Shown here: positions 47,285-60,270 of the stretch, piece after piece
Layout: every line of letters begins with the position of its first letter
Position numbering within the stretch: the first letter of the stretch is position 1
UHGV virus genome: UHGV-0335561
Reading direction: 5' to 3' (one strand)
DNA from: a virus
Length of the DNA: 60,270 bases
Program-made: the position numbers and the translations under genes
Notes under the pieces: generated by a model
Seen by the model: only the letters and a program-made list of their open reading frames with translations
The model's database searches: none
Told to the model about the DNA's origin: nothing

Positions 47285-47300
47285 TGGGGCTGTCCTTTTT
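47268..47300. terminator. bidirectional terminator between convergent Q and the 174-aa gene
   Basis: acagccccgtgatggggctgt hairpin with T run after and A run before. Confidence 0.65.
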
Positions 47301-47823
47301 ACCAGAGTTGAACCATTTTCTGGGTGCCGTCAGGCTTGAGATTATCAATTTCAGAGAGAACGTAATATTGAATGGCTTCACAAACGGTGGTGTAGGGTGA
47401 ATTACCTTCTTTAAGTGGCACGATATTATTATTAACGCGAACCTGTATTTCATCGTTATACATTGCGATCGAAACAGGAGTGTGCACGAACGCGACTTCG
47501 CCAGGTGTGTCGTCAACCACCGTTTCAATACTAAAAGTCAGTTTTCGCTCATCATTGCTGCCCCGTGCTTTGGGGGTAGCGGCAGGGATCTGGGATAAAG
47601 GCATTCTGCGAAATCCTTCGGCTGCTTCCAGTCCGCATGAAACGTAATGCTGGCGATTACCGTCGCTATCTGTCCAGGTCTGTGATGGCAGCTCCAGCGA
47701 GATTTCATAAGCATCAACAATGCCCTGGGCAAGGCGTACAAGCGGGGTCAGATCTTCATTGCGGCGAAAGCTCTCCTTTACCTGCTCCCGTTTTTCTCTT
47801 AACTGCTTGTAATTAATGACCAT
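47299..47823 (-). CDS. hypothetical 174-aa protein at the cos-proximal edge of the cargo locus
   Basis: GGAGG RBS 7 nt upstream of ATG (MVINYKQLREKREQVKESF...); own terminator; no TM; no family recognised. Confidence 0.6.
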   Translation of the reverse strand: MVINYKQLREKREQVKESFRRNEDLTPLVRLAQGIVDAYEISLELPSQTWTDSDGNRQHYVSCGLEAAEGFRRMPLSQIPAATPKARGSNDERKLTFSIETVVDDTPGEVAFVHTPVSIAMYNDEIQVRVNNNIVPLKEGNSPYTTVCEAIQYYVLSEIDNLKPDGTQKMVQLW

Positions 47824-48368
47824 AAGACAGCCTCCATTGATTTCTTTGCTCGTATTTTGCACTTATGAAGTATGGTCGGCAAGGTGCCGTATCGCTGACG
47901 CGCTTCGCTTGTCTGCTGCTTCGCCGGGGCATAAAAAATTTATGCCCCGGCTCTCCAGCTCCTGTATCAATCAGATAATTTCACGACGCCTTCCAGTTTA
48001 TCGCCACCATCGACGGTCAGACTCTTACGCAATTCCACCGCGTTGACTGCATGTTCTCGCTGCCTCAGTGCGATTTTGACGGCCTTACCTTTCACCCCAT
48101 CAAATCAAAAGCCCTCACGCCTTTTTCATGCTCAGCGTGAGAAATATGGCCATTCTGTTGTGTCTCTGCGACATCGTTCAGGGAATGCTATTTACCCCCT
48201 GAAACGCGGGCTGTTCCCCCGTCACCTGCGCGCAGAAAAAGCGCGTTTTTTTGTGCACGCACGGATCCTTGACGGATCCAGCCGCCATGCGGGCCGGAAG
48301 GGTAAAAAGTCGTTCAAAAAAATTGTGCAAATTTGTGCACTTTTGTGCAGGTAAGCATGCCTATATAT

Positions 48369-48397
48369 TTGACCGTGGCTTGCCTTTGATGTAGTTT
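48369..48397 (+). promoter_or_regulatory. putative sigma70 promoter (TTGACC, 17 bp, TAGTTT) preceded by three TTGTGCA repeats at 10-bp spacing
   Basis: aattgtgcaaatttgtgcacttttgtgcag upstream of the -35/-10 pair. Confidence 0.35.
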
Positions 48398-48449
48398 ATA
48401 CGTCACAAAAACCACAAAACGTGGTTATGATTTCTATGAGGGGGTTGAT

Positions 48450-48485
48450 ATGAAAAAAATGTATGATGAATTTGATGGTTTCTAA
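48450..48485 (+). other. leader mini-ORF (11 codons, MKKMYDEFDGF) with strong RBS, just upstream of a terminator
   Basis: GAGGGGG RBS 5 nt upstream of ATG; stop about 20 nt before the hairpin. Confidence 0.35.
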
Positions 48486-48503
48486 GCTACGTTGACCTCT
48501 AAT

Positions 48504-48534
48504 GAGGCGGGGATTTGCTCCCCGCCTTTTTTAT
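48504..48534 (+). terminator. rho-independent terminator/attenuator 13 bp upstream of the first cassette gene
   Basis: gaggcgggga-tttgc-tccccgcc followed by tttttt. Confidence 0.7.
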
Positions 48535-48546
48535 GGATGAAATAGG

Positions 48547-49044
48547 ATGAACCCAATAACACTACAAATCATCAGCAATGCTATTGTTCTGCTTGGCGTT
48601 TTGGTTGCCATTGGAACCATTATCTACAATGTGCGTACCGCAAAAAAAACTCAAACGGCCAACTTTCTTTTTGAGAGTCGGCAAGATATGCAATATATAG
48701 AGTCATTGCATACCCTGAAACAAGTGCATCGTTCAGGCAAATCATTTCGTTCTTATGTTTTTCCTTGTGATGGTTGCATAATAACAGATGAAGAAATGGC
48801 CGAGCGTCGAAAATTTCAATATATTTTAAATTTTTACGAGCGAGTTGCTGTAAGTATTCGTGAAGGTATTTATGATGAAAAAATGATAAAAAGAACATCT
48901 TACACAACAGTTGTAGAGACATATGATATTGCCGAGCCATTAATTAAAGCAATCAGAGAAAGCATTAATTCGGATACTACATATCAAGAATTCGAATGGT
49001 TAGTAAGAAGATGGAAAGCTAATCCTTTACGGAAAAACAAATAA
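48547..49044 (+). CDS. hypothetical membrane-anchored protein (single N-terminal TM plus about 135-aa soluble domain), AT-rich
   Basis: 165 aa MNPITLQIISNAIVLLGVLVAIGTIIYNV...; visibly lower GC than flanks. Confidence 0.7.
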   Translation: MNPITLQIISNAIVLLGVLVAIGTIIYNVRTAKKTQTANFLFESRQDMQYIESLHTLKQVHRSGKSFRSYVFPCDGCIITDEEMAERRKFQYILNFYERVAVSIREGIYDEKMIKRTSYTTVVETYDIAEPLIKAIRESINSDTTYQEFEWLVRRWKANPLRKNK

Positions 49045-49083
49045 TGTTTTACCCTTTAATTTACAAGTAACACAGGGGGAAGT

Positions 49084-49926
49084 GTGACACAGAATCCGTT
49101 TTCATTTTATGACTTTTTGGGCTATCTAATTCCAGGTGGGTTATTCCTGTTTATCCTTTTTTTGTTTTCTATTGAAATTAACCCTGTTTATATAGAAGGT
49201 ATTCTTAACCATATCCTGAAATATAAAGAAATAATAAGTGTATTTATATATGTGGTATTAATCGTTCTATCATATATTTCAGGTCACTTCATATCTATTC
49301 TATCATCCTGTTTAATTGAAAAATACATGAACAGTAAACTTGGGTATCCTTCAATTTATCTGTTTTCTAAAAGAAGCTCCCTGAAAATAAAACGACATAA
49401 TACTAAGTTCAGTATAGTTAATTTTATTCGTGGAGTTTTTTTATTTCCTGTATCAGCTTTTGATAAAGCAGAACATCATAAAACCACACTGCATTCTATA
49501 CTTATTAAAGTCTTTTGGCCGCAAATACGAGATGGTTATATAAATGTTTTTTCTGTATCTACGCTATATCGACGTAAGGGCTTGAGGGGCGATCTTTTTC
49601 GCCTTGCTTATCATTATGTGTATGAACATTCTAAAAATCATCAGGTGAAAATGCAAAACTATGTTGCTTTGTATGGTTTTTGTAGAAACATTACATTTGT
49701 TTTTCTCGCTTCAGTCTGGTTGCTTATGTTCCTGCTCCTTCTATCCTTTTTAATAGATATAAATATCAGACTGTTACCTTTTTGTTTTCTTCTCTTGTTT
49801 TGTATTGCTGCATCCCGAGTATTTTATTATGGTTTTGTTAAGTATTATCGCCGCTATTCTCTTGAGGTTTTAATGGCATTTGCGGTACTTCAGCACGATA
49901 AAAAAACTTCGGCAATTTCATCATGA
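49084..49926 (+). CDS. hypothetical polytopic membrane protein (4-5 predicted TM helices), AT-rich
   Basis: 280 aa; hydrophobic segments at about 10-30, 50-72, 196-222, 224-250; purine-rich RBS region. Confidence 0.7.
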   Translation: MTQNPFSFYDFLGYLIPGGLFLFILFLFSIEINPVYIEGILNHILKYKEIISVFIYVVLIVLSYISGHFISILSSCLIEKYMNSKLGYPSIYLFSKRSSLKIKRHNTKFSIVNFIRGVFLFPVSAFDKAEHHKTTLHSILIKVFWPQIRDGYINVFSVSTLYRRKGLRGDLFRLAYHYVYEHSKNHQVKMQNYVALYGFCRNITFVFLASVWLLMFLLLLSFLIDINIRLLPFCFLLLFCIAASRVFYYGFVKYYRRYSLEVLMAFAVLQHDKKTSAISS

Positions 49927-49942
49927 TTTGAAACATTGGCAC

Positions 49943-49970
49943 CCTGTTAGCAAGGGTGCCAGAATGATGT
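49943..49970. terminator. hairpin between the convergent membrane cassette and parR
   Basis: ggcaccct-gttagca-agggtgcc. Confidence 0.55.
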
Positions 49971-50009
49971 GTTGGTCTGTATTTTATTAGTTCACATACA
50001 ATTATCAGA

Positions 50010-50324
50010 TTATTCTGGGAATAAGGTCTGAATATTCTTTTTTATTTTATAAAAATTGCATTCAACTCCGCTAGGCTGATTATCCTGGTATGTTTCCTTG
50101 ATGCTAACGGTATTGAAGGGGAGGTTGTCCTCTGGCCATTCGGCCATCCAGTAGGCAAATGCTGGGTTGCGCTTTATGAGCGCTAGCCCAGCCAGAAAGG
50201 CCGCGCGTTGCGCGCGGCTGCGTTCGGAGGCTGGCAGGCTATCGAGGTAATTGCACGCCTCCTGTTCACTCTTGACGGCGGCGGGCTTCAGATAGAAACT
50301 TATCCGTCTGGTTGGTGTCGTCAT
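50010..50324 (-). CDS. parR: ParR-like centromere-binding protein (type II partition, ribbon-helix-helix)
   Basis: 104 aa; RRISFYLKPAAVKSEQEACNYLDSLPASERSRAQRAAFLAGLALIKRNP resembles plasmid R1 ParR as I recall it; AAGGAG RBS. Confidence 0.75.
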   Translation of the reverse strand: MTTPTRRISFYLKPAAVKSEQEACNYLDSLPASERSRAQRAAFLAGLALIKRNPAFAYWMAEWPEDNLPFNTVSIKETYQDNQPSGVECNFYKIKKNIQTLFPE

Positions 50325-50328
50325 TGGT

Positions 50329-51288
50329 TTACTCCTTGTCCATTGCGTACAGCCCATTAACCAGAGCAAACTGTGGCACCCCGTCCGCGATGAAAGTCGC
50401 ATTAACTCCGCAGACTTCGCGGATAGCGGGTGCCACAATCTCCGCCCCTCCACCGACAACCATCACCCGCCCGTAACCCGAAAAAACCGCCAGCGCGCGG
50501 ATCACGCGTTGTTTCAGTGTTTCTTCCTTTTCACGAATAACCGCCATCAGGCTGGCGTAATGCGCGTCATTGTGGATGTGCTGGCGCAGCCAGGCTTCAT
50601 CATGGCGATGTTCGATAATGGTATTGGCGATGTGGTGACTGGTGCGCATACCGTTAGTGGCCATCACCGACAGTACGGCATCGGCCATCAGGGAAACGCC
50701 TACGTGTGGATCGCAAAACACCTGGCTGATACCTGCCAGTTGCCCTTGAACCTTTGCCACATCCAGCGTGGTTCCGCCTAAATCCACAATCAGCAGGGAT
50801 TCAAACGGACTCATGTCAGCCAGTGCTTTAAAGCCAGCCGGAATGGATTCAGGCATAACCCGCACGTTACGGATAGTGAATGCTTCGCCGTTCTGGTATT
50901 CCACCGGGCGCATAACGTTCGCTTTTTTGCGGTTGATGTTGGCCATGTCCGGCTGTGCGTTTGTGTCGAAATACTCGCTCAGTGGCAGGGTGACAACCAC
51001 ATCCACCTCCTGTGGCGTGATGCCTGATTTGACCAGCGCGTGATGAATGGCGATTACATTCACATCGCTGTACTGGTATTGCGTGTCGGTCGTCTGGACA
51101 AAGCGATCGCTAACCGGATCAAAACCATAGCGCACGCCATCAAGCATGTAGTTCGCGGGCTGCATGCCACCGAACGGCGCAGACCATTCCGACTTGAAGC
51201 TGTTCGGGCTGATGGCGTTGCGGCGTTCGCCATTCTCAGTCCATGCCAGCTTGATGTTGGTGGAGCCGTCGTCGATACAAATTTTCAT
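50329..51288 (-). CDS. parM: ParM/StbA-family actin-like segregation ATPase
   Basis: 319 aa; MKICIDDGSTNIKLAW...ISPNSFK.EW...YSDVNVIAIHHAL... motifs of R1 ParM. Confidence 0.85.
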   Translation of the reverse strand: MKICIDDGSTNIKLAWTENGERRNAISPNSFKSEWSAPFGGMQPANYMLDGVRYGFDPVSDRFVQTTDTQYQYSDVNVIAIHHALVKSGITPQEVDVVVTLPLSEYFDTNAQPDMANINRKKANVMRPVEYQNGEAFTIRNVRVMPESIPAGFKALADMSPFESLLIVDLGGTTLDVAKVQGQLAGISQVFCDPHVGVSLMADAVLSVMATNGMRTSHHIANTIIEHRHDEAWLRQHIHNDAHYASLMAVIREKEETLKQRVIRALAVFSGYGRVMVVGGGAEIVAPAIREVCGVNATFIADGVPQFALVNGLYAMDKE

Positions 51289-51304
51289 GTCGCTTTTCCT
51301 TATG

Positions 51305-51440
51305 TTGATTAATTAATCGTTTACGGGATTCTGAAATCCCGTTTTTGCCTGTTTTGTGCGCGCTTCATATATCGCTGCGCGTTTTTTGCTCATTTACGGG
51401 ATTCGTAAGTCCCGTTTCTGTCTGTTTTTTGTTTCCACTG
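51305..51440. repeat. two direct repeats of about 45 bp, each with an internal palindrome (ACGGGATT...AATCCCGT), upstream of parM; putative parC-like centromere/operator
   Basis: cgtttacgggattctgaaatcccgtttttgcctgtttt and tcatttacgggattcgtaagtcccgtttctgtctgtttt; the second copy overlaps the last codons of A. Confidence 0.55.
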
Positions 51441-54187
51441 GTCAGGCCACCCCGCAGCAGGTCTGCTTTGCGGCTGGCGCGTTCAGTGGTTTCACTGATT
51501 CTCTGTGCGTGCTCTGCGTCGCGGATGGCGCGCAGCATGTCAGAAAGCACGGTAACGGGTGTTTTCATGGTGTTCTGGCCCTGCTGAAGTGTGGATGCCA
51601 GGCGTGCGGCGGCTTCAGGGTCTGATGCCCCCAGCTGTGCCAGATAGCTGGCGACCGGGTTATGGCGGATCTCCGTGCTGCTTACGCCATGATTACGGCT
51701 CAGGCGCTGCCAGAGCTGCGTGATTCGGCTGTCCGGGCGGGTATCCGGTTTGCGTACAATTTCAAATCCCTGCGGTGCAATGATGCTGCCGTCAACGTAC
51801 AGACTGCCGCCCCGTAACAGGTGCTGCATCTGTTGTTCACCGATATGCAGGCCGAGAGATTCAGCAGACTCCCGCCATTCTTTAGCGAGTAATTCGTGGT
51901 TATCAGGCAAAGGCCGCTGCTGTTTGCGGCTCTGTGTCCAGCTCTGCATTTCATCGCTGCTGTTTTTTGCCTGTTTGTCACGAAGCGAACGCATCAGCGC
52001 CCGGCGTTCGTGTCGTTTCAGTGAGCGCATCCATTCGTTCACTTCAACGCCGTCAGGGAGCTGCGGCCACGGTGCTGGCCGTTCTTCCGGCTGTTCTGTC
52101 CCGTTGTTGTCCGTTTCCTGTACACGGGGACAGTTATTGCCACGAGTCCAAGGGGCGGCAGGGCCGCCCTGAAGGTCAAAACCATTTTCGCGGGCGCTGT
52201 CTTCCGCTTCCGGTTTACGTCTTACCAGCTTCCAGTTATCCGGATGCGTGCACACACGGGAGGATTCCCCGATGAGTGGTGACCAGATCCCGTAAATCTG
52301 TACGCTCTGTTCGCCGTAATCGTTCAGCTCATCTGCGAGGTCGTAGGCGGTGCGAATCAGGTAGTCCTTGCGTGGAACAAGCACGCCACCCTGTTTTTCA
52401 ATGTAGGTGGCAAAACACCCGGCATCGGCGGCAGCGAGTACCGCATCCATTGCATCATCTTTCAGCCGTTGCGGGCCTTCCGGATTGCGTGCCATCTGGC
52501 TGGCAAGGCGGCGCAGTTCACGCCACACCTGACGGGAGGGGATGCCAAAGAACTGGAACTGACGGACCCGGTGAAGGCGCGCCCAGCCGATGGCGCGCTC
52601 CACGCTCTCGGCCATTGATTTTCCGGTTTCGTGGTCCACGCGTGGCTTGCCCGTTTTCGGGTCGATGCCATCCACGGCGCGGCTGTCCAGGTTCTTTCCG
52701 ATGTAGGTGGCGATGTAGCTGGTTGGCGTGCCTTTTGAGCCGTCGACATACTCCACCTTAAAGCGCGGAGTAATATCATTGCCCAGCTCGTGGCGGTCTT
52801 CCTGAATGGCAATATCGCGGGTATGGGACACAATGGTGTCGATTTCTTCCGGATGTGCAAAGACCATCATATGCCAGTGCACGGTGCCGTCATGATGAGG
52901 CTCCACCGTGCGGATGCCATACCAGCGCAGGCCGTCGCGGTTCAGTTTTTTGCGGACCGCCGCAAAAAACGTGTTAACCAGGTAATCGCTGGAGTCGCGC
53001 ATTGTGGCCCCGTTCCATTTGGGATTCGGATGACCGTTCTCCGTTGTGGCGTGGTATTTTGACGGGCAGGTGACAGTCAGAAACACCGCTTTGTCGCCAC
53101 GGGCTTCGGCCAGAAGTTCCAGTCCCTTCATGGTGGCCATCATTTCTGCCTTACGGTGAACCGGGTTACTTACTCCCGCGTAATACACTGTCTCGAGATC
53201 AATCGTGAACCCGTCTTCATTTTCCAGCATGAAACTTTTCAGGAAATCGCGTGTTTTCTCGCGCTGTGCGCGAAACTCGCTTAACGCGTCCTGGCTCAGA
53301 TAGGGTGATGTTTTTCTGGAAACCAGACAGGCGGCGCGGAGTTGTTCTTCTCTCCACTCGCAACGTAACAGCCACAGTTTGCGTTTCCACCATTCCGCAC
53401 AGGTCAGGCGAAGGATTGCGCCCGGCAGCAGCTCCGTGTCCGGTTCGTTCCTCCGGTCTTTGTCTGTTGTCAGTGCGTCATAATGTGGAGGCATGGCGTG
53501 CAGGTGTAACGCCATGCGGGCCAGCATCTGATACGCCTTCAGGGTTACATCCATGGTCAGCTCGCCATCGGTCGCGCCAAAGCCATCGCAGAGTTTTTCG
53601 AAGGTGCTGCTGAACATCGCCGCCGTCATGGTGGCCAGCGTCTGTATCTGGTGTTTGTTGAGCTGCGGCAGGTAAAGCAAATCGTCCAGGCGTTCGCGTC
53701 CGGCAAGGGAGCGATAACCCGGTGTCAGCCAGCGTCCGTCAGTGCTATCCAGACGTTCGAATATTTTGCGCAGGGTTCCGCGTGCATAGCGTTCCGCCTG
53801 CCAGCTCTTTTTGCCTTTCCGGCGATCGGCTTCCTGTTTTTTGCGCAGGAAGGAGAGGTGGCGAATAAGCGGATCGCGCAGATAGGACGGCAGCAGGCGC
53901 AGCGAGGCCATGGCTTCATCCACCGCGCCACGTGCCTGTTTTCTGGCGTCTCCTGCCAGTGTGATGGTTTTGTCCTGTTTTTCCTGTGCGTCCAGGCTTT
54001 TATTAATCAGGTTGCCCAGCGGCGTGGCTGAGAACGCCGCATCAGCCATTTCCTGGCGGCGCTCGTTCTCTGCCCGGTAGGCATCCAGCCAGGAGGAAAG
54101 CGCGGATTCAGGAGCGGGGATCCCCGTTCCTTCACGCCCCACTGCGTGGCGCGGTTGTTGCCAGTCCCTGAGGTACTCTGCCGTCAT
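51365..54187 (-). CDS. A: replication initiation endonuclease (P2 gpA-family rolling-circle initiator)
   Basis: 940 aa; P2/186 A-like domains; position in the early operon. Confidence 0.85.
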   Translation of the reverse strand: MTAEYLRDWQQPRHAVGREGTGIPAPESALSSWLDAYRAENERRQEMADAAFSATPLGNLINKSLDAQEKQDKTITLAGDARKQARGAVDEAMASLRLLPSYLRDPLIRHLSFLRKKQEADRRKGKKSWQAERYARGTLRKIFERLDSTDGRWLTPGYRSLAGRERLDDLLYLPQLNKHQIQTLATMTAAMFSSTFEKLCDGFGATDGELTMDVTLKAYQMLARMALHLHAMPPHYDALTTDKDRRNEPDTELLPGAILRLTCAEWWKRKLWLLRCEWREEQLRAACLVSRKTSPYLSQDALSEFRAQREKTRDFLKSFMLENEDGFTIDLETVYYAGVSNPVHRKAEMMATMKGLELLAEARGDKAVFLTVTCPSKYHATTENGHPNPKWNGATMRDSSDYLVNTFFAAVRKKLNRDGLRWYGIRTVEPHHDGTVHWHMMVFAHPEEIDTIVSHTRDIAIQEDRHELGNDITPRFKVEYVDGSKGTPTSYIATYIGKNLDSRAVDGIDPKTGKPRVDHETGKSMAESVERAIGWARLHRVRQFQFFGIPSRQVWRELRRLASQMARNPEGPQRLKDDAMDAVLAAADAGCFATYIEKQGGVLVPRKDYLIRTAYDLADELNDYGEQSVQIYGIWSPLIGESSRVCTHPDNWKLVRRKPEAEDSARENGFDLQGGPAAPWTRGNNCPRVQETDNNGTEQPEERPAPWPQLPDGVEVNEWMRSLKRHERRALMRSLRDKQAKNSSDEMQSWTQSRKQQRPLPDNHELLAKEWRESAESLGLHIGEQQMQHLLRGGSLYVDGSIIAPQGFEIVRKPDTRPDSRITQLWQRLSRNHGVSSTEIRHNPVASYLAQLGASDPEAAARLASTLQQGQNTMKTPVTVLSDMLRAIRDAEHAQRISETTERASRKADLLRGGLTSGNKKQTETGLTNPVNEQKTRSDI

Positions 54188-54631: not shown

Positions 54632-54862
54632 TTAATGGAGTTTGTTTTGCTGCTGGATGAGCTGTTGAAGCTCGTGCAGATCATCCGCCAGATAGCTGAA
54701 AACAGAGGCGGAATAAATGTTTGATAGTGCGTGGCTGCGCTCATGCAGCATATTGATGTGCATGATTTGCGCGACGCGTGATGCGCGGGAAAGTCTGCGG
54801 TTGATTTCAGTCTGGATGTGACGACGCTCCGCGATAGCGCGGTGCTGTTTGCGGTTTGCCAT
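54632..54862 (-). CDS. hypothetical early-operon protein (76 aa)
   Basis: Same-strand small ORF with basic N-terminus. Confidence 0.45.
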   Translation of the reverse strand: MANRKQHRAIAERRHIQTEINRRLSRASRVAQIMHINMLHERSHALSNIYSASVFSYLADDLHELQQLIQQQNKLH

Positions 54863-55184
54863 GGTGTGGCCCCTTGTGTAGTAAGTTGTGAAAACTCACC
54901 ATCCAGAGCTGCGAAACTGTGGGTGGCGAGACGTACGAGGTTCGCAGTACCGGCTACACAAGAACCCGGCCCGACCGAAGTCGGCCCCGTACGCCCCGCC
55001 ATAATTCTGACGCGAAAAAAACGTGGCAATACAGTACGCACAAAAAAACCGCTGGCGCGGTTGTGCGCTTGTGTAGTCAGCAGGCTGCGAAACCCGGCAC
55101 CCGTTTTATGAGGTGCAGCGGAAATGTAACCTGACTGATTGCGGCATGGCAAGCGGTTTTTTTGTGTGTGCATGCTCTGGTTTC

Positions 55185-57127: not shown

Positions 57128-57478
57128 TTATAAATCAGCCTGTTTAATAAAACTTTGCCCGTGAAGCAGACGATCAACCGTGCGAAGTGCTTCGTATAAT
57201 GTGAAATCCTGCCCGAACTGATTGTCGCCGTTGCTCAGTGCAAAAATGCGGTTTCCGGTAAATGGGTTGCGCTGGCATCTGTGAACCACGATTCCTGCTT
57301 TTTCAATCAGCCAAGTGTGTTCACCAATTTGTTTTACTGGGTAGCCATCCGGCGTTGCGTGTGTTTCGCTCAGGCTGTAGCGAGAGTTGCTACGTGATGC
57401 ACTGGTAGCGAAACGGTTAGCATGGCGTTCCGCACCGTTGCGGAAGCGCTGCTGTGAAGAATTGCGCTGTAGTTTCAT
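57128..57478 (-). CDS. hypothetical early-operon protein (116 aa)
   Basis: Same-strand ORF. Confidence 0.45.
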   Translation of the reverse strand: MKLQRNSSQQRFRNGAERHANRFATSASRSNSRYSLSETHATPDGYPVKQIGEHTWLIEKAGIVVHRCQRNPFTGNRIFALSNGDNQFGQDFTLYEALRTVDRLLHGQSFIKQADL

Positions 57479-57615
57479 ATTAAAACTCTGTACCTTCGGT
57501 AAGGTGTACTCGTGTCACCTTGTATTGATTTGTGGTATTTTTTTTGTGTGTCTAGGACTTGGACTGGCCGGTTCAGGTCCTGGCTTATGTTTAATTAAAT
57601 TGTTAAGAGGTTTTC

Positions 57616-57807
57616 ATGTCAGAAGATAAAAAAGTTGTTAATTTGTTGAGTGAACTTAGTGCTGCTCTGGATAACATTAACCCTCCCAGGGTAAAAACGA
57701 CGGGTGATAAAGACGCATTAAACACAGAGATTCATATATTACTGGCGTTAGTAACTGACAAAATTCAGCGTAAATACCCACCTGTCACACAACTGGTTGA
57801 TTTTTAA
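57616..57807 (+). CDS. hypothetical 63-aa protein, opposite orientation within the early region
   Basis: AAGAGG RBS 7 nt upstream of ATG; convergent with the 140-aa gene. Confidence 0.5.
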   Translation: MSEDKKVVNLLSELSAALDNINPPRVKTTGDKDALNTEIHILLALVTDKIQRKYPPVTQLVDF

Positions 57808-57813
57808 TTTGAT

Positions 57814-58236
57814 TTATGCCGGGCTGCTCCCGGCATCTTCTAGCTGCCATAATGTCTCGTCACCTGATAGAGCAAAACGAAATGAGTGAAGTATATCCCC
57901 CCGAGAGAAGCTCACGGCTACAGCTGCGGGAAAGTCAAATATAATCCCACCTTCATTTTTAAAACGATTACGCAATTGATAGGCTATCGGTTTGATTTGT
58001 GCAGGAAGAGTATCTATATCTCTTCCATTGACAACAGAATCTTTGTTTTCAAGTACTGATTTAGCGATTAGATATAGATGCCAGTAACTGGTTACAATTG
58101 TTACTCCTGTGATGTGTCGTAAATTAATTGCAATTCGTCCGTTATTATGTTTTTCCGCAAGGTATTTCAGGTTATCAATTAATGCTTGGTCATTTTTTGA
58201 AATAGTTATTGTGAAATCTGACGTGTTTGTTTTCAT
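57814..58236 (-). CDS. hypothetical 140-aa protein, relatively AT-rich
   Basis: Internal Met start just after the upstream stop; track ORF 57814-58479 extends into the upstream gene. Confidence 0.5.
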   Translation of the reverse strand: MKTNTSDFTITISKNDQALIDNLKYLAEKHNNGRIAINLRHITGVTIVTSYWHLYLIAKSVLENKDSVVNGRDIDTLPAQIKPIAYQLRNRFKNEGGIIFDFPAAVAVSFSRGDILHSFRFALSGDETLWQLEDAGSSPA

Positions 58237-58240
58237 ACGA

Positions 58241-58762
58241 TTAGTTGCCTCTGTTGTTTCTGAGTTGGTCCAGTTTTGAGCTTCTGCCTGTATAAACTCG
58301 CTTACCGTTAATGGTCTGGCAGTCTTCTTTATTAGCTGGAGAGAACTTCCTTTTCTGGCGGTCATACGTCCAGTAACTTTTCCAGTTGTGCCATTCTGGG
58401 GGCTCGTGCTCTGGTAGCTCATCAGCCAACTTGTCCCACTCTTTGGCGTTAAACCACCATACTCCGTCTGAGTTTTCATCTTCCGGGTTTGTGCGCGTCT
58501 TGTGTCCCGGCATTTGACCGCGATGAATGGCTACGCGCAGTGCAGATTTTGTTAGCCCAATATATGCCGCGCCTTTTTCCAGAGAGCAAAGCCCGGCGAT
58601 CGGACCATCCAGCCGCAAAGTCGCTCCTTTTTTGTAGGAACGCTTTTTCTTGTTTTCTTCGTGCTCGTCGTCGTTGGCGGCATCAATGGATCCGCTGAGT
58701 GCGTCACTTTCCTGAAGTGGTTGGTGGTCAGATAACTCTTTATCGGCAATGAAGTCCCGCAT
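58241..58762 (-). CDS. first early-operon gene: AlpA/Cox/Apl-like HTH regulator (putative excisionase/early regulator) with acidic N-terminus
   Basis: 173 aa; LRLDGPIAGLCSLEKGAAYIGLTKSALRVAIHRGQMPGHK HTH; divergent from the repressor gene. Confidence 0.6.
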   Translation of the reverse strand: MRDFIADKELSDHQPLQESDALSGSIDAANDDEHEENKKKRSYKKGATLRLDGPIAGLCSLEKGAAYIGLTKSALRVAIHRGQMPGHKTRTNPEDENSDGVWWFNAKEWDKLADELPEHEPPEWHNWKSYWTYDRQKRKFSPANKEDCQTINGKRVYTGRSSKLDQLRNNRGN

Positions 58763-58822: not shown

Positions 58823-58880
58823 AAGATAACCAAAAGGTTATCTTTGTGCGAGAGGTTAATACTCAAATGGTTATCTTGTC
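58823..58880. promoter_or_regulatory. operator region between divergent repressor and early operon: perfect palindrome AAAGATAACC-aaaa-GGTTATCTTT plus a third GGTTATCTT half-site
   Basis: Seen directly in the sequence between the two divergent start codons. Confidence 0.6.
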
Positions 58881-59208
58881 AATAGACTACGCAAAAAAGT
58901 TACGTCAGATACGTAAGGCGGAAGGGTTAACACAAAAGCAGTTTGCGGATATTACTGGGTTGTCTTTGGCAACCATAAGGAATTACGAATCGGGGCAAAA
59001 GAACGCTAGAGCAAAAATCGTTGAGGCGGTTCTGCAAGTCGATCGCTTTGAAAAATACATGCTGTGGCTAATAAAAGATAAGACGCTACCTGTCGCCGGG
59101 CAGATTGCTCCGGCTCTCTCTCTTGATGGATCTATTCAGTCGGAGGGCGATCAGGTTTCAATCGGTATTACCCAAAAATCACCCCGATCAGGCCGCAATG
59201 TTGGCTGA
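58867..59208 (+). CDS. immunity repressor (HTH-XRE family, P2 C / 186 cI-like)
   Basis: LSIDYAKKLRQIRKAEGLTQKQFADITGLSLATIRNYESGQ HTH; upstream of int, same strand. Confidence 0.8.
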   Translation: MVILSIDYAKKLRQIRKAEGLTQKQFADITGLSLATIRNYESGQKNARAKIVEAVLQVDRFEKYMLWLIKDKTLPVAGQIAPALSLDGSIQSEGDQVSIGITQKSPRSGRNVG

Positions 59209-59277
59209 CTCTACACATTGAGCGAATTACATATCGCAAGGAGTGTTTAGTTAATTTATCCGTTGGAGGGGCTAATC

Positions 59278-60270
59278 ATGTCGATTAAGCAACTCAAAGA
59301 CGGACGTTATCAGGTCGATGTCAGACCGCAGGGGGCGGAAGGAAAGCGGATTCGAAAAATCTTTGCCCTGAAATCAAAGGCTCAGGAGTTTGAGAAGTAT
59401 GTGTTACAGAACTTTCATGACAAGCCATGGCAGGCTAAGCCAGCTGATCAGCGGCGATTATCAGAGCTGCTTGATGCGTGGTGGATGCTTGATGGGCGTA
59501 ATCAGGCTTACGGGGATAGCTACAGGGTTAGGCTAGGGAAGGTTGTTCGTGAAATGGGAGATCCTCGCGCCAGTCAGATGACGCGAAAATTTATGCTTGA
59601 ATATCGGTCAGAGAAATTACAGGCCGGATTAATGCCGTCCAGTATTAATCGTGACTTATGCGTACTGTCTACCATGTTCACGGTGCTGATTGAAGCTGAG
59701 GTCTTTCACAACGCGAACCCTGTACGCGGTATACGAAAACTGAAAGTTCAGAACACAGAGATGGCCTTTCTTTCTGATGATGAGATTGAACGGCTTCTTG
59801 AGCGACTGGAGGGTGATGTGCGTCGTGTTGCCATTCTGTGTCTTTCTACTGGTGCCCGATGGAGTGAAGCATCGGAACTACGTGGAGAGCATATCGTTGG
59901 CAACCGGGTGACGTTCTTTAACACCAAAAACGGAAAATCCCGTTCGGTTCCTGTGGCGGATTCGGTCGTGCCTCTGATTAAAACCCGTCGAACGGGGTTA
60001 TTGTATCAGGTTGATTATCTGAAGTTCCGGGAGATTCTTCAGGAGGTGAAACCGGATTTGCCGAAGGGGCAGGCTACGCATGTCATGCGTCATACATTTG
60101 CCACACACTTTATGATGAATGGCGGAAATATTGTTACGTTGCAACGAATCCTGGGGCACGCAACGATTCAGCAAACAATGACGTACGCTCATTTTTCGCC
60201 GGACTTTTTACTGGACGCGATCAACTTTAATCCGCTGGCTGAAAGTGTCCATAAACTGTCCATCGATTAG
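59278..60270 (+). CDS. int: tyrosine integrase (P2-type)
   Basis: 330 aa; R...HxxR...Y catalytic signature (ATHVMRHTFATHF...TMTYAHF); GGAGGGG RBS; stop at window end. Confidence 0.9.
   Translation: MSIKQLKDGRYQVDVRPQGAEGKRIRKIFALKSKAQEFEKYVLQNFHDKPWQAKPADQRRLSELLDAWWMLDGRNQAYGDSYRVRLGKVVREMGDPRASQMTRKFMLEYRSEKLQAGLMPSSINRDLCVLSTMFTVLIEAEVFHNANPVRGIRKLKVQNTEMAFLSDDEIERLLERLEGDVRRVAILCLSTGARWSEASELRGEHIVGNRVTFFNTKNGKSRSVPVADSVVPLIKTRRTGLLYQVDYLKFREILQEVKPDLPKGQATHVMRHTFATHFMMNGGNIVTLQRILGHATIQQTMTYAHFSPDFLLDAINFNPLAESVHKLSID

What the first reader, a model, noticed from the sequence alone, without database searches (positions are those of the whole stretch)
57479..58240. Convergent small-gene pair (63 aa on +, 140 aa on -) embedded in the P2-like early operon
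A + strand 63-aa gene with a strong RBS faces a relatively AT-rich 140-aa minus-strand gene, interrupting an otherwise co-directional early operon just downstream of the Cox/Apl-like regulator. Opposed small genes at this position are typical of moron cargo such as toxin-antitoxin, superinfection exclusion or anti-defence genes.
Basis: seen in the sequence. Interest (0 to 1): 0.45.

Follow-up and report, generated by a model that had tools for sequence, protein, structure and literature searches.

The report
Accessory gene cassette beside prophage cox
Two small orphan genes lie tail-to-tail in a swap-prone slot just after the cox regulator of a P2-like E. coli prophage; they are real, optional cargo of unknown function, so this is an ordinary kind of phage "moron" at a little-described position.

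Summary
A 63-aa gene (B, 57616-57807, +) with a strong ribosome-binding site converges on a 140-aa gene (A, 57814-58236, -). Both are AT-rich (37-38.5% GC; cox 50%, window 54.8%) and both are annotated in GenBank. One correction: only B opposes the early operon. A runs with it and starts 4 nt after the cox stop.

The window is a P88-like (Xuanwuvirus, P2-like) prophage at dmsA, of the ST131/UTI89 type. The interval between the cox 3' end (~58259) and the DUF4761 start (57485) is a cassette-exchange hot spot. It is empty in P88, and other relatives carry unrelated genes there.

A and B each define a small orphan family found only in E. coli and Salmonella P2-like prophages. There are four diverged A/B subtypes, and A always comes directly after cox. 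A also occurs with three unrelated partners instead of B. B was never seen without A.

No Pfam, PHROG, PADLOC, NCBIfam, PDB, Rfam or fold match gives a function.

Best reading: optional cargo, not core genes. A is made with Cox from the early promoter. B is a separately transcribed, terminator-bounded moron that is probably expressed in the lysogen. A toxin-antitoxin or CII-like role is not supported. Interest is moderate to low.

The parts
57486..58258 (.). Variable cargo slot between the DUF4761 start and the last codons of cox. It holds the whole A/B cassette.
   Evidence: DNA homology to relatives with other cargo (L007, L008) or none (P88) stops at 57485 on the left and resumes at 58259 on the right. 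GC is 38.4%.
57616..57807 (+). Gene B: 63-aa, two-helix, slightly acidic protein (pI 5.6). It is the only gene here that opposes the early operon.
   Evidence: ORF and RBS. Annotated CDS. Four diverged subtypes share invariant M1, D4, L11, P23, P24, I39, L42, K53, Y54 and P55. Shuffle z-scores 4.9-21.5. No family hit.
57605..57610 (+). Shine-Dalgarno sequence AAGAGG of gene B, 5 nt before the ATG.
   Evidence: Read directly from the sequence.
57814..58236 (-). Gene A: 140-aa alpha/beta protein (pI 6.9). It is co-directional with cox and starts 4 nt after the cox stop.
   Evidence: ORF. Annotated CDS. Homologues P0014 (34% identity, Salmonella), P0016-P0018, L051, L059 and L036. The AlphaFold model is only pLDDT 55. 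No family or fold hit.
57816..57836 (+). Hairpin ATGCCGGG-CTGCT-CCCGGCAT just after B, overlapping the stop and last six codons of A. It is terminator-like on + (tail CUUCU) and is followed by an A-rich run on -.
   Evidence: Folding of both strands. The homologous B' in L009 has a similar hairpin followed by TTTTTCTTTT. The + strand gene in L008 also ends in a hairpin scored as a terminator.
57552..57583 (+). 14-pair hairpin in the spacer upstream of B, either a putative 5' leader structure or a + strand terminator-like element. The left edge of the 687-bp natural deletion (57557) falls inside it.
   Evidence: Terminator-like scan. Fold z = -2.9. Deletion boundary.
57533..57541 (+). Candidate extended -10 element TGgTATTTT for B (inferred). 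It could instead be the T-tract of the hairpin at 57500-57522.
   Evidence: A TGGT(A/G)TT-type T-rich motif after a hairpin recurs in the left flank of every cargo type. The consensus scan found no canonical sigma-70 promoter.
58241..58762 (-). cox (173 aa), first gene of the early operon. It is context, not part of the cassette. The cassette travels with it.
   Evidence: Pfam Phage_Cox and phrog_23196. In UTI89, cox, A and B are 98.4-99.5% identical to the window, while the C repressor gene is 74.6%.
57128..57478 (-). DUF4761 gene, the first conserved early gene after the slot. It is context.
   Evidence: Pfam DUF4761 E=2e-68. It directly follows cox in P88 with a 37-bp gap.

Best explanation
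The pair is optional cargo in a recombination hot spot immediately 3' of cox in P88-like/P2-like prophages. It is not part of the core early programme.

Gene A is read from the Pe early transcript straight after Cox, with 4 nt between stop and start. It is therefore made at the onset of infection or induction and is silent when the C repressor shuts Pe.

Gene B is a separate unit on the opposite strand. It has its own strong RBS, a start signal somewhere in the 137-bp spacer (best candidate an extended -10 at 57533-57541), and a hairpin at 57816-57836. That hairpin can stop + strand transcription but has no U-tract on the - strand, so Pe transcripts can still reach DUF4761 and the replication genes. 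B can thus be made in the lysogen.

Shown here: the anatomy, the optional and mobile nature of the cassette, protein-level conservation of both genes, and the linkage to cox.

Inferred: the promoter, the timing of expression, and the role. The most likely role is conflict or host modulation, such as superinfection exclusion, defence or anti-defence. On current evidence A and B act as two autonomous accessory genes that share a slot, rather than as an obligate pair.
For: Optional and mobile:
- P88 has cox followed by DUF4761 after a 37-bp gap.
- The slot boundaries lie at 57485 and 58259.
- Relatives with related cox/C (88-94% identity) carry an ECs1072-family gene (L007) or an unrelated 117/155-aa convergent pair (L008). 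Loci with the window-type 173-aa Cox carry only a 68-aa membrane protein (L048, L050).
- L004 has 99.6-100% identical cox, C and int, with 57557-58243 absent.
- GC is 38% against 50-55%.

Real genes:
- Both are intact in 21 loci.
- Four diverged A/B subtypes lie behind four different cox/C types in E. coli and Salmonella, always directly after cox.
- Homology z-scores are 4.9-23.5.

B as a separate unit:
- It has a strong RBS.
- The hairpin after it is strand-specific here, and the + strand genes of L009 and L008 end in similar hairpins.
- In L032, B' is replaced exactly from RBS to hairpin by another cassette while A' stays.

A as an autonomous gene:
- Closely related A cores (L051, L059, L036) pair with B, with a 78-aa protein, or with an ECs1072-family protein.

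Literature:
- P2-like phages have recognised moron and defence hot spots, and a minor one lies between int and the primase (PMC3573123, PMC13586616).
Against: - No promoter for B reaches consensus in the scan, so expression in the lysogen is inferred, not shown.
- The U-tail of the hairpin after B is weak here (CUUCU).
- No database match of any kind supports a conflict-related role.
- The congruent divergence of A and B over four subtypes, and the absence of any B without A, could mean the two do depend on each other.
- The IMG/VR sample was limited to the best 80 of 242 loci and is redundant.
Confidence: 0.55

Rival explanations
1. A and B are a functionally coupled effector/antidote pair with opposite timing. 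B, made in the lysogen, blocks some phage or host process, for example growth of incoming P2-like phages or satellites. A, the first protein made after Cox from Pe, neutralises B so that the prophage's own lytic cycle can proceed.
For: - Four diverged A/B subtypes are co-inherited behind four different cox/C types, with congruent relationships: window groups with Salmonella, and L009 groups with L051.
- B was never found without A, whereas A was found without B at least three times (L032, L059, L036). That asymmetry is what an antidote (A) and an effector (B) would give.
- In Salmonella, A and B together form one 765-bp unit bracketed by a 36-nt direct repeat.
- The two genes sit on opposite transcriptional programmes.
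Against: - Closely related A cores sit next to three unrelated partners, and the A tails differ only where they overlap the partner's 3' end. This argues that A does not recognise B specifically.
- Physical linkage alone explains the co-divergence.
- The geometry of the sub-slot (promoter flank on one side, hairpin on the other) alone explains why B is the part that gets swapped.
- No interaction evidence exists.
- The sample of independent events is small.
Confidence: 0.2
2. The module is part of the lysis-lysogeny circuit, analogous to cII/pE of phage 186. A, in the cII position after the Cox/Apl gene, would activate a + strand promoter upstream of B. Its transcript would run antisense through A and cox into C and int to establish lysogeny.
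For: - A occupies the position that cII holds in 186-type switches (PMC3448106).
- B points towards C and int.
- The hairpin after B has only a weak U-tail in the window.
- In Salmonella, the A and B stop codons overlap with no obvious terminator between them.
- The cassette co-segregates with cox rather than with C.
Against: - The cassette is missing from prophages with the same cox, C and int (L004; also L048 and L050, which have the same Cox type), and from P88.
- No HTH or other DNA-binding family is detected in A.
- B is itself a conserved protein, not just a leader.
- B' in L009 is followed by a good terminator.
- The same left flank drives unrelated genes in L007, L008, L051 and L059.
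- No C-operator repeat (GGTTATCTT type) occurs near B.
Confidence: 0.07
3. It is a toxin-antitoxin (addiction or abortive-infection) pair, with one protein the toxin and the other the antitoxin.
For: - Two small adjacent orphan genes in a prophage, AT-rich and mobile.
Against: - The genes are convergent and not co-transcribed, unlike type II TA operons.
- No TA or defence profile matches either protein.
- A persists after B is replaced by unrelated genes.
- A natural deletion removes both together, so it does not show whether either can survive alone.
- A would be transcribed from a repressed promoter in the lysogen.
Confidence: 0.05
4. B is a non-translated, fortuitous ORF. The + strand features are only RNA or DNA structures, such as terminators or insulators, within a spacer of the early operon.
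For: - No consensus promoter was found.
- Close variants show too few substitutions to measure selection: 5 polymorphic sites, 2 synonymous and 3 not.
- The spacer is rich in hairpins.
Against: - There is a strong RBS at ideal spacing.
- An ORF of 60-64 codons is kept in four subtypes whose DNA no longer aligns, with ten invariant residues including the PP loop and the KYP motif.
- Shuffle z-scores reach 21.5.
- The ORF is intact in all loci.
Confidence: 0.05

Closest known systems
Morons and accessory hot spots of P2-like phages: position 1 between gene A and Q (old, tin), position 2 in the tail region (Z/fun, neaT); defence hot spots of Rousset et al. 2022; the 2026 NAR survey
   Same: Optional, AT-rich, rapidly exchanged small genes lie at a fixed position between conserved phage genes. 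At least one is oriented against its neighbours and has its own terminator. [quoted passage not shown]
   Different: This slot is inside the early operon, immediately after cox. It is not one of the two classical positions. It is nested: one gene is fed by Pe, a second faces it, and the second is exchangeable on its own. None of its cargo matches a known defence system. The classical A-Q position in this same window holds other cargo: DUF4760, a 280-aa unknown and a ParM-like protein.
Lambdoid 'moron' unit (promoter - gene - terminator; Hendrix and colleagues)
   Same: Gene B has its own RBS and a downstream strand-specific hairpin. Its composition is deviant and it shows presence/absence polymorphism.
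   Different: The promoter is not identified. The upstream flank is conserved across different cargo and looks as much like a terminator as a promoter. B is embedded antisense in an operon rather than lying between operons.
Phage 186 apl-cII-pE establishment module
   Same: A gene directly follows the Cox/Apl gene, and an opposing transcription unit points towards the repressor and integrase genes.
   Different: No sequence similarity or HTH is detected. The module is dispensable in nature, a terminator hairpin follows B, and the opposing unit encodes a conserved protein.
ECs1072-family phage-associated protein (NCBIfam NF033230) and phrog_9021/phrog_10410 proteins
   Same: They occupy the same slot in sister prophages. 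They sit on the same strands as B and A, behind the same left flank.
   Different: They are unrelated in sequence to A and B (z of about 0.2). Their function is also unknown.

Membership tests
Prophage moron / accessory cassette | Presence/absence or replacement among otherwise closely related phages | tested here: met
   The slot is empty in P88 and L004. L007, L008, L032, L048, L059 and L036 carry other cargo between the same flanks.
Prophage moron / accessory cassette | Base composition deviating from neighbouring phage genes | tested here: met
   The slot is 38.4% GC, against cox 50.0%, DUF4761 49.3% and the window 54.8%.
Prophage moron / accessory cassette | Own promoter, active in the lysogen | tested here: inconclusive
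   The scan finds no consensus sigma-70 site. The only candidates are an extended -10 TGgTATTTT at 57533-57541 and a weak TTCAGG-17-TTAAAT. Expression data are not available with these tools.
Prophage moron / accessory cassette | Own transcription terminator | tested here: inconclusive
   An 8-bp GC-rich hairpin lies at 57816-57836, right after B, but its tail is only CUUCU. The homologous B' and the unrelated L008 gene have clearer terminators.
Type II toxin-antitoxin system | Two co-transcribed genes in one operon with matches to toxin and antitoxin families | tested here: not met
   The genes are convergent. Pfam, NCBIfam and PADLOC give no TA matches for any subtype.
Type II toxin-antitoxin system | Obligate co-occurrence of both partners | tested here: not met
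   A' is kept while B' is replaced (L032). A-like cores occur with unrelated partners (L059, L036).
186-type CII / pE establishment module | HTH transcriptional activator encoded after apl/cox | tested here: not met
   No HTH or DNA-binding family is found in A or its homologues. The structure model is too weak to exclude a cryptic fold.
186-type CII / pE establishment module | Required part of the switch, present wherever that switch type occurs | tested here: not met
   L004 has the same cox, C and int without the pair, and L048 and L050 have the same Cox type without it.
Known anti-phage defence systems (PADLOC-DB 2.0) | Profile match of at least one component | tested here: not met
   No hits for A, B or their homologues. 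There were only weak, irrelevant hits for neighbouring or other proteins.
P2-type early operon context (Cox family neighbour) | Cox-family protein as first early gene, facing an HTH C repressor and integrase | tested here: met
   Phage_Cox scores 31.2 bits against a cut-off of 27.5. The C gene matches HTH_3 at E=3.8e-11. The integrase and the P88-like synteny are as expected.

The most novel reading that the evidence does not exclude
A and B define a previously undescribed two-component phage-conflict module with split timing. B would be a small lysogen-expressed helical protein that blocks incoming P2-like phages or P4-like satellites, or locks the prophage. A would be a Cox-coupled early protein that lifts the block for the resident phage. 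More broadly, the cox-adjacent slot would be a nested exchange site whose resident flank drives interchangeable lysogen-expressed cargo.
Probability: 0.15. Interest if true: 0.6.

Novelty: new member of a known kind. Interest (0 to 1): 0.33.

Why it matters
This prophage sits in about 5% of complete E. coli genomes (272 of 5426), mostly the pandemic ST131 lineage and UTI89-like strains. Its cargo is therefore carried by clinically important bacteria. The work defines two small orphan protein families and a third, cox-adjacent cargo position in P2-like phages with a nested, bidirectional layout. If the cargo proves to act in phage-phage, phage-satellite or phage-host conflict, the slot would be a compact place to mine for new small effectors. 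If not, it remains ordinary dark-matter cargo.

Tried and rejected
Family and profile searches
- Pfam, PHROGs, PADLOC and NCBIfam on A, B, all their homologues and all alternative cargo gave nothing useful.
- The only hits for A were sub-threshold: DUF1408/phrog_5450, E of about 0.02-0.04, 15 bits against a cut-off of 27.
- The only named alternative cargo are an ECs1072-family protein and PHROG families of unknown function.

Homology searches
- The word-indexed search of 5.8 billion proteins found only near-identical copies for A and for B.
- Exhaustive phmmer over 1.84 billion representatives found one true relative, P0014. P0015 is a repeat-protein false lead.
- A profile search added P0016-P0019.
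- The GTDB genome scan found nothing.
- Viral and metagenome scans returned only near-identical copies.
- tblastn against phages found 3 identical records.

Structure
- AlphaFold of A gave pLDDT 42 from the single sequence and 55 with a 6-sequence alignment.
- PDB profile searches were negative.

RNA and regulatory signals
- Rfam gave no hit.
- The Ogr-type TGT-N12-ACA late-promoter motif is absent near the slot.
- No C-operator-like repeats occur near B.

Selection
- The selection test on close alleles had too few sites.

Ideas dropped
- 'Every cargo type is a convergent pair': L048 and L050 carry only a co-directional 68-aa membrane protein.
- 'A recognises B through its C-terminus': the tails differ because they overlap the partner's 3' end.

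Literature
- No paper mentions these proteins or DUF4761.

Full report
**1. What is in the sequence**

The end of the window carries the regulatory region of a P2-like prophage.
- An integrase (59263-60270, +) and an HTH C-type repressor (58867-59208, +) face an early operon on the - strand.
- The early operon begins with a Cox-family gene (58241-58762). It continues through DUF4761 (57128-57478), DUF4754 and other small genes to the replication endonuclease (51365-54187).
- The DNA is 100% identical to three deposited E. coli phage or prophage records, and over the conserved early genes about 92% identical to phage P88 (Xuanwuvirus).
- The prophage is integrated next to dmsA.

- B: 57616-57807 (+), 63 aa, with AAGAGG 5 nt upstream of the ATG.
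- A: 57814-58236 (-), 140 aa.
- Their stop codons are 6 nt apart.
- GenBank and RefSeq annotate both as hypothetical proteins.
- They are AT-rich: 37.0% and 38.5% GC, against 50% for cox and 54.8% for the window.

One correction is needed. A is on the same strand as the early operon and starts 4 nt after the cox stop codon. Only B is opposed.

**2. The pair sits in a cargo slot**

Phage P88 has cox followed by DUF4761 after 37 bp. Homology between the window and relatives with other cargo breaks at 57485 and resumes at 58259. Among sister prophages, some with 88-95% identical flanks, that interval holds one of the following:
- nothing;
- a 68-aa membrane protein, phrog_14475 (L048, L050, L053);
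- an ECs1072-family gene on the + strand, plus a 91-aa ORF whose start overlaps the cox stop (ATGA) (L007);
- an unrelated convergent pair of 117 and 155 aa, phrog_10410 and phrog_9021 (L008);
- relatives of A and B (see section 3).

One genome, L004, has 99.6-100% identical cox, C and int but lacks exactly 57557-58243. This also removes the cox stop codon and adds 12 residues to Cox. It is most simply read as a deletion.

The window-type cassette is present in 272 of 5426 complete E. coli genomes, always once and always chromosomal. Most are ST131-like. In UTI89, cox, A and B are 98.4-99.5% identical to the window, but the C gene is only 74.6% identical. The cassette therefore travels with cox and not with the repressor.

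**3. Both genes belong to small orphan families**

Searches of 5.8 billion and 1.84 billion proteins found only near-identical copies plus a handful of distant relatives, all from E. coli or Salmonella. Reading the contexts and running local HMMs over all fetched loci gave four diverged A/B subtypes:

| Subtype | A length (aa) | B length (aa) |
|---|---|---|
| Window | 140 | 63 |
| Salmonella, L011 | 138 | 62 |
| L009 / L010 / L013 | 131-133 | 64 |
| L051 | 137 | 60 |

- Each subtype lies behind a different Cox/C type. A is always directly after cox and B is always convergent.
- The homologies are significant against shuffles: z = 21-23 for window against Salmonella, and 4.9-7.3 for the most distant pairs. 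Comparison of A with an unrelated slot protein gives z of about 0.2.
- B keeps ten invariant residues, including a PP loop between two predicted helices and a C-terminal KYP motif. This argues strongly that it is translated.
- In the Salmonella phage, the 765-bp A+B unit is bracketed by a 36-nt direct repeat covering the RBS and first codons of A and of the next gene. This suggests gain or loss by recombination.

**4. Are A and B a functional pair?**

For coupling:
- They diverge congruently: window groups with Salmonella, and L009 groups with L051.
- B was never seen without A.

Against coupling:
- In L032, B' is replaced exactly from its RBS to its hairpin by a different 107/172-aa cassette, while A' stays 98.8% identical at the DNA level.
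- A cores closely related to that of L051 sit beside a 78-aa protein (L059) or an ECs1072-family protein (L036).
- Their C-terminal tails differ only where they overlap the 3' end of the partner.
- In L007 the A domain is gone while the ECs1072 partner remains.

I conclude that A is most likely an autonomous, Cox-linked early accessory gene, and that B is the commonest occupant of a swappable sub-slot. A specific A-B relationship is a minority possibility, at about 0.2.

**5. Transcription signals**

- A GC-rich hairpin (57816-57836) follows B and overlaps the last codons of A.
- On the + strand the hairpin is followed by CUUCU. On the - strand it is followed by an A-rich run. It can therefore hinder + strand transcripts but not Pe transcripts heading for DUF4761 and the replication genes.
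- The homologous B' has a similar hairpin with a clear T-tract, and the unrelated + strand gene of L008 ends in a scored terminator.
- Upstream of B, the 137-bp spacer holds two hairpins (57500-57522 and 57552-57583) and a T-rich motif, TGgTATTTT (57533-57541).
- A similar hairpin followed by a T-rich TGGT(A/G)TT motif occurs in the left flank of every cargo type. It may be an extended -10 promoter or a + strand terminator/insulator, and I cannot tell which.
- No consensus sigma-70 promoter, Ogr-type late-promoter motif, C-operator repeat or Rfam family was found.
- Expression of B in the lysogen is therefore inferred from its orientation and anatomy. It has not been shown.

**6. Function**

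Nothing in Pfam, PHROGs, PADLOC, NCBIfam or the PDB matches A, B or their relatives. The AlphaFold model of A reached only pLDDT 55, and its fold searches returned noise.

By position and behaviour, the cassette resembles the moron and defence cargo known at other positions of P2-like phages (PMC3573123, PMC9122126, PMC13586616). [quoted passage not shown]

- A toxin-antitoxin reading fails on gene arrangement, family matches and obligate co-occurrence.
- A 186-style cII/pE reading fails on dispensability, on the lack of an HTH, and on the terminator after B (for the comparison).

**7. Verdict**

The 'moron cargo' interpretation is supported in kind but not in specific function. This is a new member of a known kind: two uncharacterised orphan families at a little-described, nested cargo position next to cox. 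It is of moderate to low interest unless experiments reveal a conflict function.

Noticed in passing
L004 2537-3094 (NZ_CM136152.1), equivalent to window 57557-58243: A single E. coli genome carries the same prophage with an exact 687-bp absence of A, B and the cox stop codon. Its Cox is 185 aa with a 12-residue extension (LDTQKIPQINTR). This is a natural knockout of the cassette.
   Followed up: yes
window 58867-59208 versus L005 3886-4227 (UTI89): The C repressor gene of the UTI89 prophage is only 74.6% identical to the window's. The adjacent cox, A and B are 98.4-99.5% identical and int is 96.9%. This is an immunity-gene swap with a breakpoint in the cox-C intergenic region.
   Followed up: partly
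L011 3986-4021 and 4751-4786 (Salmonella enterica contig AADIMW010000011.1): A 36-nt direct repeat (92% identity) covers the RBS and first seven codons of the A homologue and of the next early gene, and brackets the 765-bp A+B unit. The variant P0017 starts with the downstream gene's version (MKLTIED). This suggests recombination within the repeat.
   Followed up: partly
window 57500-57583; L007 1670-1750; L008 1355-1435; L009 1785-1835: The left flank of the slot always holds a GC-rich hairpin followed by a T-rich TGGT(A/G)TT motif, whatever gene follows. The same ~130-bp flank precedes five different + strand genes. It could be a promoter/leader or a + strand terminator/insulator.
   Followed up: partly
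L007 2205-2480 (-), L036 2049-2657 (+ in locus orientation): L007 has an unannotated 91-aa ORF whose start overlaps the cox stop (ATGA). It is homologous to the C-terminal extension of the 202-aa A-like protein of L036. It looks like the remnant left after loss of the A domain, and it overlaps the 3' end of the ECs1072-family gene by 50 nt.
   Followed up: partly
window 47285-51364: The classical P2 cargo position between the replication gene and the portal gene holds a DUF4760 protein (48547-49044, +), a 280-aa protein with no family (49084-49926, +) and a full-length ParM/StbA actin-like segregation protein (50329-51288, -). The last is unusual cargo for an integrated P2-like prophage.
   Followed up: partly
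window 54632-55173 (-): The early region carries a gene annotated in PV468777.1 as 'derepression protein', and next to it a remnant annotated as 'similar to ash family protein'. Both names are associated with satellite phage P4 rather than with P2-type helpers.
   Followed up: no
window 57814-58479 (-): The mechanical ORF list extends A to 221 aa from an upstream ATG that overlaps cox in another frame. Annotation, homologues and the position of the conserved N-terminus all support the 140-aa start at 58236.
   Followed up: yes
L048 / L050 / L053 (IMG/VR), directly after cox: A 68-aa membrane protein (phrog_14475, MTSNI...LTG..ERF) is an alternative, co-directional occupant of the same slot behind at least two Cox types. 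The Salmonella locus L011 also has small hydrophobic ORFs between cox and the A homologue.
   Followed up: partly
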